Assembly: GCA_046346795.1 (NCBI GenBank)
Contig: JAXMHJ010000019.1
Span: 1,305 to 65,304 of the forward strand
Direction: 5' to 3'
Origin: Kiritimatiellia bacterium
GTDB lineage: Bacteria; Verrucomicrobiota; Kiritimatiellia; SS1-B-03-39; UBA6053
DNA: 64,000 nucleotides
The translations under genes were made by a program, and so were the position numbers. The notes under the pieces were generated by a model, which did not search any database, was not told where the DNA came from, and worked only from the letters and a program-made list of their open reading frames with translations. This document shows positions 23,801 through 26,298 of the stretch, piece after piece (the stretch's first letter is position 1; each line of letters begins with the position of its first letter).

Positions 23801-26298
23801 TGGGCATGGATCCGGACTGGGCGGACAAGCTGTTCGACTTTGTGTGGACCGTCGGCAGCGGCACCGCCTCGAAGATCGTCTTCGACAAATACAAGGTGCA
23901 CGAGACCGGGCTCTACCGCTACGCCTCGATGCTCTACCTGAAGTGGCAGCTTGACGAGTTGTCACTGCGGCTGCGCGGCACGGCGATGACCTCCGACCTG
24001 GCGTCGGTGCTGGGGGACGAGAGCCGCTGCTCCTTTTCCCTGTGGAAGTGGATCGCGCGCCGCCGCGCGCAGGTGGTGATCCAGGCGATGACCCTGGGCA
24101 GCGAGATGTCGAAGCTGCAGGAGACGCTGGAGAAGGAGGCGGCGGCGAACCCCGGCGTCATCACCCCGGAAATGAAGCAGCACGCCATCGACCTGGCCAG
24201 GGCGCGCATGAAGGCGTTCCACGAATCCACCCCCCTCGACGCCAACCTGGTGATCACGGTGGTCGCGGGCATGGACTTCGGGCCGAATGCCGGCGCGCTC
24301 TCCACCTCCGGGGCCGGCATCACCGCGCTGGCGCGGAAGCTCCTGCACGGGGAGGCGACGCGGGAGGAGGTGGACGCGGCGAGCCAGGAGGCGGTGCGCC
24401 TGTTCGCGGTGTTCGGGCCCAGCCGCCTCAAGGCCCTGCGCAAGATGCTGGGGGACGACGAGGCCTGGCCGGGCGGCAAGAAGAATCCGCAGCGGCGCGC
24501 GGTGCTGGTGGGGCTCGACGCCGCCCGCCGGACCATCCATCTGCAGAGCCTCAACTATCTGGCGGACCTGGCGGGCAACGACACGGACGAGGGCCGGGAG
24601 TCCCGCGCGGAGATCCTGAAGCGCGCCGCCAAGATCTGGGACGAGCAGTATCGCGACAAGGACGGCAAGGTCGACGAGGCGAAGAAGAAGGGGGACAAGC
24701 GGCGGCCCAAGTTCGAGTCGATGGCCCCCGACGAGATCAAGAACCTGGTCTCCCAGATCGCGGCGGTGGTGCCCACCGGGTCGGCCGGCTACGTCGACGA
24801 GGAGACCGGGGAGTACCGGATGGTGCACAGCGACCTCGACTACACGGTGCTGATGCGGGACGGCTCCGGGGTGACGGCCGACCAGCGCCTGGCCCTGGAA
24901 TCGATCCTGCGCGCCTCCTTCCGCTTCAACAGCGGGGGGTTCAACGAGGACGCCTTCGACGTCAGCTTCATGGTCGACCGCGAGGGGGTGTTCCGGCAGA
25001 CCGACGTCTTCTCGCGGAACCCCGCGGCGACCCTGGCGGAGATCGAGGACGAGTCCACCGATCCGGAGAAGCTGCGCAAGCTGAACGATTCGATCGACTC
25101 CACGCTGCGCGAGATGAGCGCCGACTACGCCCATCCCGAGCGCTACGTCACCAACGGGCGCAAGGCCAGCCTGGTCTTCCAGGCGGCGCTGGGGCAGGAC
25201 ATCCTGATTTTCGATCCGGCCGCCAAGAGTTTCCAGATCCGCAAGAAGACGGCCATCATCAAGGATCCCGGCGGCGCGCTGGTGCAGATGCCGGAGAACA
25301 TCGCCCGGCTGGTCACCAGCCAGGGGGTTAAGCTGGAGGACTGGATGGCCCTGGGCACGGTGGTCGACGACGTCGCCTTCCTCTCCACGAAGATGAAGAA
25401 GATCAACGAGCAGATGCAGAACACCTCCCCCGACGTCAATCCGTACGACGCCATCGCCAAGGAGCTGTCCAAGCGCTGCATCCGGGTGATGCTGGCGTAC
25501 CAGGCCACCGATCCGGACAGCCGGGCGGCGCTGAACGCGAAGATGGAGAAGGCCCTGATGGGGGAAAAGGTGGACCAGGGGGACATCTGCAACATCATGG
25601 CGACGCAGCTTGCGGCCGCGTTGAAAACCAAGGAAGGCAATCCGCAGGAGCAGCGGCGGTTGATGGAGATGATCAACACGGTCCAGTCCTGGAAGAAGGT
25701 CAAGCTCGGGGAGGCCAACGCGGACGAGATCGTGGAGATGGTGGCGGGGAAGAAGCTCTCCCAGGGTTCGCCGGAGTACCGGGCGGCGCTGCAAAAGTTC
25801 ACCCAGTACTCGGTCGGCGCCATGGAGGAGATGGCGGTGGCCTCCATCCATGAAAGCGTCCAGGCGCTGAAGCCGATGGTGGAGGCCAAGAAGCGGCTCG
25901 ACGCGCAGATCCTGGCGTTTGGCGACCCGAACACCGACGAGGGGCGGCGGAAGCTCGATCAGATGACCCCGGAGGAGAAGAAGAAGTGGGAGACGCTCAC
26001 CCTGCGCAGCATCAGCGCGGAACGGCTGCTCCAGGTGTCCCTCAATCCGATCGCCGCGCGGTTCGACAAGCTGAACAACTACCAGTTCGGCGCGCCGCCC
26101 GCCACCGGGCCTTCGGCGGTGCAGAAGGCCCTGCTGGAAGGGTTGCAGGTGGGCATCAGCAAGGAGGCGTTCGAGGAACGCAAGCGCATCATCAAGGACA
26201 GCACGACCCGCCTCTACCGCGCCCGGGGCATCCTGCTTCATCTGGAAATCGCGGTGGCATGGCCGGCGGATCAACCGGAACTTCAGGAGGCGGCATGA
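20848..26298 (+). CDS. 1816-aa, mostly helical protein of unknown function with an internal nucleotidyltransferase-like signature (cistron A)
   Basis: The ORF is uninterrupted and has balanced K/E/D/L-rich composition, while the antisense ORFs are R/G/P-rich shadows. No signal peptide or TM segment is evident. An alternative start at ATG 20869 has gggag 8 nt upstream. I recognise no family outside the segment listed next. Confidence 0.8.
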   Translation: MVWEYQPMSAFHGDTRDDVLPVCRGWWRGDGWIAVAVALQQGLTEPSEAQDVRAIVLEKSMTSAPAVGVAPLYVHKPDLRRRITDLLDQEKAMVADEAVLAGMLAGYDRLTTPWKPGAPNDFDPYVLHLLYQFQKAWYWAADFWSQINPVLGYNPRYAAYRALRELNRRINLLAVERQALEKAYFDELAGSVPTNSTAKAEVFFDQGVEVRRMILNGLRERIDSLRLYRRETLEDFLLAQRRARDTGVPFADTEKAVEWWSVDNSRLNALEAEQKELKQRQRTCRETIETYRAMLNVMPTGTVQRTQIQMLLDGAAAALKAAKTRQGEVDTMIKNAQLGYDPDATGGKVVRPESDSAVKSAANTFSVLYADLATRRRILQRATRESTHLHGVAAEFDAYREKTMLALQKLGALHPDRVKGAYDPLPLRGALLDKGIVNLSTGEMKVEDGMVAESDYFYSVMDKYKNFGGKLQTSSTAVNTERVVVEGLQISMELCSAMASAYGNVANDLMEAAMNLPLGVVGARMNIAGVLEKTYNKIRNKRIATDKKITLLADALDPKIGAAELRQMFGIGPAPIPQPFAMFYASNSHFFPPAEHTKAPLELFRLDSEFYRGTEGGLRGILISEHSSTTNLLAEAYVIACEKAAYTLRELTLTAYSRKGLDATTGGFNWKLLTAPVQLVIQTWEALAIHVIGRDRDYVAHNAKRAAEHAAMLDLYPHLVKAGFDARKVAEWIGDPAMHPHLRRHWELLRESPEYRRFWFRAEKIHQEEKIEEATDRLKKAMDAFRERDLGGGLPPHIEDLGNRVQAIGLLGESEAFLAPAHYQDAIDKAYQFSFEDTVDSLLTANELDPSVVSMADIRRIEEGLFALQTRKASIDLVVSITDEIVWDYLLGKITEGVMGRIDGFLGLEKPGELAKAMSVKDMALAAGAKVKETLVNKFNPFASSIPIGDLYTKGVINFMSTHGVKMFVKNQKNMLRDTVLVQSMGMDPDWADKLFDFVWTVGSGTASKIVFDKYKVHETGLYRYASMLYLKWQLDELSLRLRGTAMTSDLASVLGDESRCSFSLWKWIARRRAQVVIQAMTLGSEMSKLQETLEKEAAANPGVITPEMKQHAIDLARARMKAFHESTPLDANLVITVVAGMDFGPNAGALSTSGAGITALARKLLHGEATREEVDAASQEAVRLFAVFGPSRLKALRKMLGDDEAWPGGKKNPQRRAVLVGLDAARRTIHLQSLNYLADLAGNDTDEGRESRAEILKRAAKIWDEQYRDKDGKVDEAKKKGDKRRPKFESMAPDEIKNLVSQIAAVVPTGSAGYVDEETGEYRMVHSDLDYTVLMRDGSGVTADQRLALESILRASFRFNSGGFNEDAFDVSFMVDREGVFRQTDVFSRNPAATLAEIEDESTDPEKLRKLNDSIDSTLREMSADYAHPERYVTNGRKASLVFQAALGQDILIFDPAAKSFQIRKKTAIIKDPGGALVQMPENIARLVTSQGVKLEDWMALGTVVDDVAFLSTKMKKINEQMQNTSPDVNPYDAIAKELSKRCIRVMLAYQATDPDSRAALNAKMEKALMGEKVDQGDICNIMATQLAAALKTKEGNPQEQRRLMEMINTVQSWKKVKLGEANADEIVEMVAGKKLSQGSPEYRAALQKFTQYSVGAMEEMAVASIHESVQALKPMVEAKKRLDAQILAFGDPNTDEGRRKLDQMTPEEKKKWETLTLRSISAERLLQVSLNPIAARFDKLNNYQFGAPPATGPSAVQKALLEGLQVGISKEAFEERKRIIKDSTTRLYRARGILLHLEIAVAWPADQPELQEAA
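24766..24978 (+). other. Candidate Pol-beta-fold nucleotidyltransferase catalytic signature inside cistron A
   Basis: The sequence is VVPTGSAGYVDEETGEYRMVHSDLDYTVLM ... AFDVSFMVD. The Gly-Ser is at 24778-24783, the Asp-x-Asp at 24832-24840, and a third acidic strand at 24958-24978. This fits the G[GS]-x(n)-D-x-D pattern plus a downstream carboxylate, but the GS-to-DxD spacing (16 residues) is longer than the usual 9-13. Confidence 0.35.

What the first reader, a model, noticed from the sequence alone, without database searches (positions are those of the whole stretch)
24720..25150. Possible Pol-beta nucleotidyltransferase core buried at residues ~1290-1430 of the 1816-aa protein
The segment VVPTGSAGYVDEETGEYRMVHSDLDYTVLM...AFDVSFMVD reproduces the minimal NTase signature: Gly-Ser, then Asp-x-Asp on the next strand, then a third carboxylate strand. 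SDLDY resembles the S-D-(I/L)-D of SMODS/CD-NTase and MNT-type enzymes. If real, cistron A could be a nucleotide-transferring or signal-generating enzyme embedded in about 1300 aa N-terminal and 400 aa C-terminal helical scaffold. I do not know of a described architecture like that. The GS-to-DxD spacing (16 residues) is longer than the classical 9-13, so this could be a chance match.
Basis: inference. Interest (0 to 1): 0.7.

Follow-up and report, generated by a model that had tools for sequence, protein, structure and literature searches.

The report
Conserved nucleotidyltransferase-like core in giant PVC protein
A 1,816-residue uncharacterised protein from a Kiritimatiellia bacterium carries, as its most conserved block, what looks like the catalytic core of a Pol-beta-type nucleotidyltransferase, and it always sits next to two giant surface-protein genes, pointing to an undescribed enzyme family in an undescribed three-gene module.

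Summary
In one sequence it means little, because 22% of shuffles of this protein contain the loose pattern. Conservation is the evidence. All about 18 homologues (~30% identity, found only by exhaustive HMMER) keep TGS, SD[LMI]D, [DE]1371 and D1377. Residues 1301-1350 hold 11 of the protein's 77 invariant columns, the densest block. An AlphaFold2 model built with the homologues (pLDDT 84, pTM 0.83) gives helix-strand-(GS loop)-strand(DxD)-helix-strand(acid), followed by a helical domain. The only database signal is sub-threshold, but it points at an NTase-fold family: MdcG (Pfam E 0.002 in 4 of 14 members, ungapped across GS..DxD; TIGR03135 E 0.018). hhalign against HI0073-type minimal NTases is weak (P 0.004) but collinear. 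Foldseek returned no NTase, which I count as inconclusive because I had no coordinates and could not trim the model. Nothing links it to CD-NTase/SMODS. Homologues carry signal peptides. The gene is always followed by a ~1,900-aa Ig-domain protein and lies next to a 4,600-6,700-aa adhesin-like giant, only in PVC bacteria. Verdict: probably a new, divergent NTase-fold family in a new architecture. Substrate and role are unknown.

The parts
20848..26298 (+). Gene A: 1,816-aa, mostly helical protein. NCBI calls it hypothetical protein U1G05_06705, 1,782 aa, starting from an internal GTG.
   Evidence: Homologues are collinear over the whole length.
24724..24993 (+). NTase-like alpha/beta core, residues ~1293-1382: helix, strand, TGS, loop, strand (DxD), helix, strand (D/E1371..D1377).
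   Evidence: AF2 secondary structure. Densest block of invariant columns. Sub-threshold MdcG matches cover this stretch.
24775..24783 (+). T1310-G1311-S1312, the 'hG[GS]' motif at the end of strand 1.
   Evidence: Invariant in 14 of 14 sequences.
24829..24846 (+). S1328-D1329-L-D1331-Y-T1333, the '[DE]h[DE]h' motif at the start of strand 2.
   Evidence: S, D, D and T are invariant. Strand 1330-1336 in the model.
24955..24978 (+). F1370-D1371-V-S-F-M1375-V-D1377: candidate third carboxylate (D/E1371, 'h[DE]h') on strand 3, plus the invariant D1377 at the strand's end.
   Evidence: Position 1371 is acidic in every sequence; M1375 and D1377 are invariant. Strand 1372-1378. D1371 aligns with the first Asp of the VDxxD motif of HI0073-type MNTs (D79 of HI0073) in the greedy hhalign.
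24994..26007 (+). Conserved helical domain after the core, residues ~1383-1720, with a beta-hairpin at 1451-1466. Invariant residues: E1431, Y1433, R1438 (HPERY..GR), D1507-D1508, K1542/I1545/R1546 (KRxIR), N1563, G1572, C1581, K1619.
   Evidence: Most conserved stretch in the phmmer hits (query 672-1047).
26285..26298 (+). AGGAGG Shine-Dalgarno sequence inside the last codons of A, and an ATGA overlap of A's stop codon with B's start codon (ATG 26295).
   Evidence: The same 4-nt overlap occurs in L003.
26295..32143 (+). Partner gene B/C. It has a signal peptide and a poly-Pro linker, then FlgD_ig, CHU_C, Big_13 and other Ig-like domains. It is one ~1,874-1,981-aa gene in every other locus; here it is split by a frame change at the G5 run at 28794-28800.
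   Evidence: Synteny.
32288..49374 (+). Giant adhesin-like gene (PPC, F5/8 type C, Sad1_UNC, Big_5, fn3, Big_13, C-terminal TPR). It is collinear with single 4,600-6,700-aa genes elsewhere. In the window it is broken into many frames.
   Evidence: Synteny.

Best explanation
Residues ~1290-1720 of gene A form a two-part enzyme module. The first part is a divergent Pol-beta-type nucleotidyltransferase core (strand-TGS-loop-strand-DxD-helix-strand-D/E). The second is a helical domain whose invariant Arg/Lys residues would hold the phosphates of the donor, as in other two-domain NTases. Shown here: the motif, its strict conservation, the order of secondary-structure elements, the weak but specific similarity to MdcG, and the gene context. 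Inferred: that the three or four carboxylates bind divalent metal and catalyse transfer of a nucleotidyl or phospho-linked group from an activated donor to a hydroxyl group. MdcG, the nearest detectable relative, attaches a phosphoribosyl-dephospho-CoA group to a Ser of a protein. A is translationally coupled to an exported ~1,900-aa Ig-domain protein and is always next to a giant adhesin-like protein. On that basis my best guess is that A covalently modifies a macromolecule of this surface module or of a contacted cell. The ~1,290-residue helical N-terminal part would serve as scaffold or delivery region. The family belongs to a three-gene module restricted to PVC bacteria (Kiritimatiellia, Planctomycetota).
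For: GS, DxD, D/E1371 and D1377 are invariant across ~30%-identical homologues, and this is the most conserved block of the protein. The AF2 model is confident (pLDDT 84.4, pTM 0.83) and has the expected order of elements, which matches the fold definition in Kuchta et al. 2009 (PMC2794190). Pfam MdcG PF10620 is matched by 4 of 14 members (E 0.002, 0.008, 0.09) over 41-46 residues without gaps from helix 1 through GS to DxD. It is matched again by one full-length member. TIGR03135 mdcG scores E 0.018 and DUF294 'putative nucleotidyltransferase' E 0.24. MdcG modifies Ser25 of MdcC and is related to 'an ancient class of nucleotidyltransferases' (PMC5534430 text and its reference 14). hhalign against a 41-sequence HI0073/MNT alignment gives P 0.004, and the greedy alignment puts GS on GS, SDLD on SDLD and D1371 on the MNT third Asp. 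The A / Ig-domain protein / giant trio is conserved in six loci with otherwise unrelated neighbours, and A and B overlap by ATGA.
Against: No match reaches a curated threshold: MdcG scores 18.4 bits against a cut-off of 26.5, and hhalign probability is 8%. The window protein itself gives no Pfam hit even at E 10. PDB profile searches found no NTase. Foldseek against PDB and BFVD found nothing below E 0.07 and no NTase in the top 50. The helix expected after GS is a low-confidence loop (pLDDT 51-60), and the GS-DxD spacing of 14-20 is longer than the classical 9-13. Full-length homologues are exported, and NTPs are not expected outside the cytoplasm, so the donor is unclear. The geometry of the acidic residues could not be inspected.
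Confidence: 0.62

Rival explanations
1. The domain descends from an NTase or has that fold but is not an enzyme. The conserved acidic cluster (E1322, D1329, D1331, D/E1371, D1377) binds Ca2+/Mg2+ or a ligand and stabilises an exported structural protein of the surface module. This would make it a pseudo-enzyme, like MMP37/Tam41-type or other inactive NTase-fold members.
For: The family is exported, into a compartment not expected to hold NTPs. All neighbours are structural or adhesin-like. Translational coupling with B suggests a stoichiometric complex rather than an enzyme-substrate pair. Inactive NTase-fold families are known (PMC2794190).
Against: The inactive members described have lost carboxylates, whereas here all three plus the GS are invariant. 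So are basic residues in the following helical domain. That is the pattern of a working active site.
Confidence: 0.17
2. It is not an NTase fold at all. It is a new alpha/beta domain whose conserved GS and Asp residues mimic the NTase signature by convergence or chance, and the weak MdcG and MNT similarities are motif-level noise.
For: The bare motif arises by chance in 22% of shuffles. No hit passes a curated cut-off. Foldseek finds no NTase. The alpha-2 helix is missing from the model and the spacing is atypical.
Against: Of the five Pfam families matched at E up to 10 in that scan, the only one hit by more than one member (4 of 14) is MdcG, an NTase-fold family, and a second, DUF294, is annotated by Pfam as a putative nucleotidyltransferase. 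An independent NCBIfam model of MdcG is hit too. The match is ungapped over the very segment whose spacing looked atypical. The order of helices and strands and the placement of each motif on its strand fit the published definition.
Confidence: 0.14
3. A is a secreted toxin or effector. The N-terminal ~1,290 helical residues mediate binding and membrane translocation, and the C-terminal NTase module is the warhead. It would nucleotidylate (for example AMPylate) a target inside another cell, where ATP is available. This is a special case of the best explanation.
For: Signal peptides in homologues. The catalytic-looking module lies in the C-terminal third, as in polymorphic toxins. Neighbours carry carbohydrate- and cell-binding domains (F5/8 type C, PPC, Ig-like). 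There are weak Foldseek similarities of the helical part to alpha-pore-forming toxin subunits and to an AMPylated HEPN toxin, none significant. Secreted NTase-fold AMPylators such as Legionella DrrA/SidM exist (my own knowledge).
Against: No recognisable toxin, translocation or immunity domains. No conserved small immunity-like gene: the small upstream ORFs of L003 and L008 have no counterpart in the window. The Foldseek hits are all at E > 0.1. The module sits among housekeeping genes and behaves as a stable chromosomal trio.
Confidence: 0.15

Closest known systems
MdcG (Pfam PF10620 / TIGR03135): phosphoribosyl-dephospho-CoA transferase, the holo-ACP synthase of malonate decarboxylase, a Pol-beta NTase-superfamily enzyme
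   Same: It is the only family repeatedly detected by sequence. The match covers helix 1, strand 1, TGS, the long loop and SD-x-D without gaps, so the GS-DxD spacing is the same. MdcG is a protein-modifying transferase that acts on a Ser hydroxyl.
   Different: All scores are below the curated cut-offs. MdcG is a small protein (~200 aa, from memory) and, I assume, cytoplasmic, encoded in mdc operons with an ACP. Here the core lies at residue ~1300 of an exported ~1,800-aa protein, with no mdc genes or ACP nearby.
Minimal nucleotidyltransferases (MNT; HI0073/MntA, Pfam PF18765/PF01909) and kanamycin NTase-type two-domain enzymes
   Same: The same three motifs in the same order. HI0073 has FGS...SDLDLAII...VDLLD; this family has TGS...SDLDYTVL...FDVSFMVD. 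The greedy hhalign is collinear through all of them. An NTase core followed by a helical bundle recalls KNTase and the HI0073/HI0074 pair (my own knowledge). There is a weak Foldseek similarity of the helical part to the HEPN toxin 7ae6 (TM 0.40, E 1.2).
   Different: hhalign probability is only 8%. The GS-DxD loop is 14-20 residues, against 10 in HI0073. There is no toxin-antitoxin context, and no Rx4-6H HEPN motif was identified.
   Same: Only the generic GS / S-D-h-D / third-acid signature shared by all Pol-beta NTases.
   Different: No Pfam SMODS or PADLOC hit even at permissive E. No effector or other defence gene nearby. The family is exported.
Exported or lumenal NTase-fold transferases: Legionella DrrA/SidM AMPylation domain (GlnE-like), LicD/fukutin-type phospho-alcohol transferases (my own knowledge, not tested here)
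   Same: They show that NTase-fold catalysis is used by secreted effectors and by enzymes that decorate surface polymers. This is the kind of role suggested by the context.
   Different: No sequence or structural similarity to these families was detected. The donor and acceptor here are unknown.

Membership tests
Pol-beta-like nucleotidyltransferase fold superfamily (definition: Kuchta et al. 2009, PMC2794190) | hG[GS] motif after core strand 1, at the start of a short helix | tested here: met
   T-G-S is invariant and lies directly after strand 1304-1309. Caveats: 'h' is Thr, and the following helix is not predicted (a loop with pLDDT 51-60).
Pol-beta-like nucleotidyltransferase fold superfamily | [DE]h[DE]h on the second core strand | tested here: met
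   S-D-[LMI]-D-[YFLI]-T is invariant at S, D, D and T. Strand 1330-1336.
Pol-beta-like nucleotidyltransferase fold superfamily | Third carboxylate, h[DE]h, on the adjacent third strand | tested here: met
   [FIY]-[DE]1371-h is acidic in all sequences, and D1377 is invariant. Strand 1372-1378. Adjacency of the strands in space was not checkable.
Pol-beta-like nucleotidyltransferase fold superfamily | [quoted passage not shown] | tested here: inconclusive
   The order of elements fits except for the missing alpha-2. No coordinates were available. Foldseek with the whole 451-aa model gave no NTase.
Pol-beta-like nucleotidyltransferase fold superfamily | Statistically significant sequence, profile or structure similarity to an established member | tested here: inconclusive
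   MdcG E 0.002 at 18.4 bits against a cut-off of 26.5. TIGR03135 E 0.018. hhalign against MNT: probability 8%, P 0.004. PDB profile searches found nothing.
Pol-beta-like nucleotidyltransferase fold superfamily | Classical G[GS]-x9-13-D spacing (Holm and Sander signature; my own knowledge) | tested here: not met
   14-20 residues in this family. The MdcG profile nevertheless aligns across the segment without gaps, so at least one accepted family seems to share the longer spacing.
Pol-beta-like nucleotidyltransferase fold superfamily | Metal-dependent nucleotidyl or phospho-group transfer | not testable with these tools
   Needs biochemistry.
MdcG / holo-ACP synthase | Score above the Pfam or TIGRFAM cut-off | tested here: not met
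   Scores are below the cut-offs.
MdcG / holo-ACP synthase | Encoded with malonate decarboxylase genes | tested here: not met
   No mdc genes in the window or in the related loci.
CD-NTase / SMODS (CBASS) | Match to SMODS or CD-NTase models | tested here: not met
   No match to Pfam or PADLOC models.
CD-NTase / SMODS (CBASS) | Operon with an effector or Cap genes | tested here: not met
   The neighbours are exported Ig-domain and adhesin-like proteins.
MNT-HEPN toxin-antitoxin NTases | Profile similarity to PF18765/PF01909 MNTs | tested here: not met
   hhalign probability 8%.
MNT-HEPN toxin-antitoxin NTases | Adjacent or fused HEPN domain with an Rx4-6H motif | tested here: inconclusive
   Only a non-significant Foldseek similarity of the helical domain to HEPN 7ae6. 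No Rx4-6H motif stood out among the conserved residues, but this was not searched systematically.

The most novel reading that the evidence does not exclude
Gene A is the catalytic subunit of a previously undescribed three-component surface system of PVC bacteria. In this reading an exported ~1,800-aa enzyme uses a divergent Pol-beta NTase active site outside the cytoplasm. It would covalently modify or attach its partners (the ~1,900-aa Ig-domain protein and the 4,600-6,700-aa adhesin-like giant), or a molecule of a contacted cell. That would be a new enzyme family, a new architecture and a new extracytoplasmic use of NTase chemistry.
Probability: 0.3. Interest if true: 0.8.

Novelty: new variant of a known kind. 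Interest (0 to 1): 0.58.

Why it matters
If the core is a working NTase, this is an unannotated family of the Pol-beta superfamily. It has no Pfam, NCBIfam or PDB relative above threshold, and only about 20 representatives among 1.8 billion cluster representatives. Its architecture has not been described: the core sits at residue ~1300 of an exported, otherwise helical ~1,800-aa protein. It also gives the first functional handle on a conserved trio of very large genes in Kiritimatiellia and Planctomycetota, whose other members contain only adhesion-type domains. An extracytoplasmic NTase raises a concrete biochemical question about which activated donor is used outside the cell. The invariant residues (G1311/S1312, D1329, D1331, D/E1371, D1377, R1347, R1438, K1542/R1546) make it directly testable by mutagenesis.

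Tried and rejected
- Single-sequence AF2 of residues 1201-1580 was useless (pLDDT 39).
- Pfam, NCBIfam, PADLOC and PHROG scans of the whole protein and of the segment found nothing, even at E 10 for the window sequence.
- PDB sequence and profile searches with the full protein, the domain alignment, the core alignment and the full-length alignment gave only coiled-coil or spurious hits, such as ceramide synthase at E ~1.
- The word-indexed search of 5.8 billion proteins found only the protein itself and nothing with the alignment. Only the exhaustive HMMER run found the family.
A degenerate DNA pattern of the motif found only two Planctomycetota MAG contigs and one metagenome contig.
- Foldseek against PDB and BFVD gave no hit below E 0.07.
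- HAD-type DxDxT reading of SDLDYT: rejected. The DxD lies at the start of a strand followed by hydrophobic residues, as in NTases, not at the end of strand 1. There was no HAD hit.
- Toprim reading (E...DxD): rejected, because there is no DxDxxG and no hit.
- CD-NTase/SMODS reading: rejected.
- Stand-alone NTase-domain proteins (P0010 and similar): rejected. These are fragments at contig ends.
- Literature searches found no description of the family or the module.
- Rfam and tRNA scans of the window were empty.
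Full report
**1. The observation**

The window has about 70% G+C. The ORF at 20848..26298 (+) encodes 1,816 aa. Its codon-position G+C is 0.64/0.41/0.94, and homologues are collinear with it, so this is the real reading frame. The overlapping ORFs on both strands are high-GC artefacts. The protein is identical over 98% of the query to NCBI MFO1521717.1, 'MAG: hypothetical protein U1G05_06705 [Kiritimatiellia bacterium]'.

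In a single sequence this proves little. The loose NTase pattern appears in 22% of shuffles of this protein, and the version with Ser before DxD in 1.6%.

**2. Homologues and conservation**

The protein has no Pfam, NCBIfam, PADLOC, PHROG or PDB-sequence match. The word-indexed protein search found only the protein itself. An exhaustive phmmer of residues 617-1816 against 1.84 billion cluster representatives found 18 relatives at about 30% identity.

Several of these matches begin at query position 672-688, which is residue ~1288-1304. That is exactly where the claimed core starts, and they extend to ~1660.

In the 14-sequence alignment of the core, the invariant residues are T1310, G1311, S1312, G1314, E1322, Y1323, S1328, D1329, D1331, T1333, R1347, M1375 and D1377. 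Position 1371 is Asp or Glu in every sequence. In a full-length alignment of ten members, 77 of 1,816 columns are invariant. Eleven of them fall in residues 1301-1350, and no other 50-residue window has more than six.

The GS-to-DxD distance varies from 14 to 20 residues in the family.

**3. Structure**

AF2 without an alignment failed (pLDDT 39). With the 15-sequence alignment, residues 1270-1720 gave pLDDT 84.4 and pTM 0.83. The elements are:

| Element | Residues | Note |
|---|---|---|
| Helix | 1294-1301 | |
| Strand 1 | 1304-1309 | ends in TGS |
| Loop | 1310-1329 | low confidence |
| Strand 2 | 1330-1336 | DxD at its start |
| Helix | 1344-1361 | |
| Strand 3 | 1372-1378 | D1371 at its start, D1377 near its end |
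| Helices and hairpin | to ~1720 | hairpin at 1451-1466, then a long helical domain |

Kuchta et al. [quoted passage not shown] In that definition hG[GS] lies before a short second helix, [DE]h[DE]h on strand 2 and h[DE]h on the adjacent strand 3 (PMC2794190). The model fits this definition except that the short second helix is not predicted.

Foldseek with the whole, three-quarters helical model found nothing below E 0.07 in PDB or BFVD, and no NTase among the 50 listed hits. I treat this as inconclusive rather than negative.

**4. Similarity to known NTases**

Scanning the 14 core segments against Pfam at E up to 10 gave five families. The only one hit by more than one member was MdcG (PF10620), with four members at E 0.002, 0.008, 0.09 and one weaker. 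DUF294, 'putative nucleotidyltransferase', appeared once at E 0.24.

A full-length member hits MdcG again (E 0.023). The independent NCBIfam model TIGR03135 (mdcG) is hit at E 0.018. All of these are below the curated cut-offs (18.4 against 26.5 bits).

MdcG attaches the phosphoribosyl-dephospho-CoA prosthetic group to Ser25 of the malonate decarboxylase ACP. Hoenke et al. 2000 related it to 'an ancient class of nucleotidyltransferases' (PMC5534430 and its reference 14).

As a second test I rebuilt the HI0073 minimal-NTase family. My recalled sequence was verified as PDB 1no5, which gave 2,650 relatives and a 41-sequence alignment. I compared this profile with the core profile. hhalign gave probability 8% and P 0.004, aligning only the SDLD strand at default settings. 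With greedy settings the alignment is collinear: helix 1, GS on GS, SDLD on SDLD, helix 3, and D1371 on the first Asp of the MNT VDxxD motif.

Taken together, the sequence evidence is weak in score but specific in direction.

**5.

Nothing points to CD-NTase/SMODS or to a defence system.

Every full-length homologue outside the window's own lineage starts with one hydrophobic signal-peptide-like segment and has no other hydrophobic stretch. The family is therefore exported.

In the window's lineage the N-terminus is unclear. The window ORF has only a short WIAVAVAL stretch. NCBI starts the protein 34 residues later. A >90%-identical sister protein (P0141) reads the same G-rich region in another frame.

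**6. Context**

Gene A's stop codon overlaps the start of the next gene (ATGA), and an AGGAGG sits in A's last codons. That gene, B, has a clear signal peptide. Together with the next ORF, C (FlgD_ig, CHU_C, Big_13 and other Ig-like domains), it is collinear with a single 1,874-1,981-aa protein in all other loci. The junction in the window falls at a G5 run at 28794-28800.

Downstream, 32.3-49.4 kb is collinear with single 4,600-6,700-aa genes elsewhere. These carry PPC, F5/8 type C, Sad1_UNC, Big_5, fn3, Big_13 and TPR domains. In the window the region changes frame many times.

The trio of A, the Ig-domain protein and the giant occurs in six loci whose other neighbours are unrelated: URO-D genes, RecA/UbiB, radical-SAM genes.

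Upstream in the window lie four PATR-repeat ORFs; two show a clear PEP-CTERM-like tail and a third a degraded one. The cluster is bounded by a histidine kinase and a sugar transferase.

The family was found only in Kiritimatiellia and Planctomycetota MAGs and in metagenomes.

**7. Mechanism**

Shown:
- a strictly conserved GS / DxD / D-E / D constellation, placed on the strands where NTases carry it;
- a conserved helical domain after it, with invariant Arg/Lys residues (HPERY..GR, KRxIR);
- tight genetic coupling to exported giant proteins.

Inferred:
- metal-dependent transfer of a nucleotidyl or phospho-linked group to a hydroxyl group;
- by analogy with MdcG, the acceptor may be a protein;
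- from the context, the acceptor may be a partner of the module or a component of a contacted cell;
- the ~1,290 N-terminal helical residues, which include a coiled-coil-like stretch at ~205-345, would be scaffold or delivery region.

The main difficulty is the donor, because NTPs are not expected outside the cytoplasm. Possible ways out are modification before or during export, action inside another cell (the toxin reading), or a non-catalytic metal-binding role.

**8. Verdict**

An NTase-fold core is likely (about 0.6-0.7), and it is the functional heart of the protein. It is not a CD-NTase-like signalling enzyme, and the protein belongs to an exported surface module rather than being a cytoplasmic scaffold.

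This is a new, divergent family within a known superfamily, in a new architecture and context. Its substrate and biological role remain open.

Noticed in passing
window 26284-26298; C-termini of P0002-P0010, P0013, P0018, P0019, P0142: Most homologues of the main clade end in ...P-[LV]-R-[RKML]-A-A-COOH (PLRRAA, PLRLAA, PLRMAA, VRKAA, VQRRAA), often preceded by 'RVPAW' 10-20 residues upstream. The window protein ends ...LQEAA. The two most divergent members (P0012, P0014) lack the tail. It could be a sorting signal, a PDZ or tail-specific-protease tag, or a degron. It is not explained by the ATGA overlap, because it persists where A and B are separated.
   Followed up: partly
window 28790-28800: Genes B (26295-28820) and C (to 32143) are one ~1,900-aa gene in every other locus. 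In the window the frame changes at a G5 run (AAGGGGGAAG). This is either a homopolymer assembly error or a real frameshift or pseudogene.
   Followed up: yes
window 32288-49374: The ORFs called here (for example 32140-33714, 33715-35214, 34305-40688, 39416-43177, 43719-46157, 46150-49374) are pieces of one giant gene. It is collinear with 4,600-6,700-aa proteins elsewhere but changes frame at least eight times. That suggests indel-rich (long-read?) assembly or decay.
   Followed up: partly
window 20848-20960: The N-terminus of A is uncertain. The region is G-rich (GGGTGGTGGAGGGGGGATGGGTGG). NCBI starts at an internal GTG. A >90%-identical sister MAG protein (P0141) reads this stretch in another frame. 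The clear signal peptide seen in other homologues is weak or absent here.
   Followed up: partly
window 11201-20730: Four consecutive ORFs with PATR (autotransporter passenger) repeats; two end in a clear PEP-CTERM-like tail (...PEAGTAGLVGLALLILRRLRR...IPEPASAGLMVAGTLLLRALRRRR) and a third in a degraded one. They lie directly upstream of gene A on the same strand and are not part of the conserved trio in other loci.
   Followed up: no
L003 9539-9991, L008 9618-9998, L002 9558-9737, L015 15367-15603: Small ORFs of 59-150 aa, with no Pfam match, directly flank A homologues in several loci. None has a counterpart in the window. They are possible accessory, chaperone or immunity genes.
   Followed up: partly
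window 4001-8000: G+C drops to 0.60-0.63, against ~0.70 elsewhere. The stretch contains a DUF4143 protein on the minus strand (6608-7435), a domain typical of ATPase or mobile-element-associated genes. It may be an insertion.
   Followed up: no
window 59323-60783: An ORF combining a caspase (Peptidase_C14) domain with a weak CsgG-like C-terminal match. It lies next to a FadL/TodX-like outer-membrane protein on the minus strand (54613-56832).
   Followed up: no
gene A residues ~205-345 (window ~21460-21880): A coiled-coil-like segment. It gives the only PDB profile matches of the full-length family alignment (phage tail needle gp26, tropomyosin/GCN4 chimeras, trimeric autotransporter stalks), all at weak E-values of 0.01-1.
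   Followed up: no
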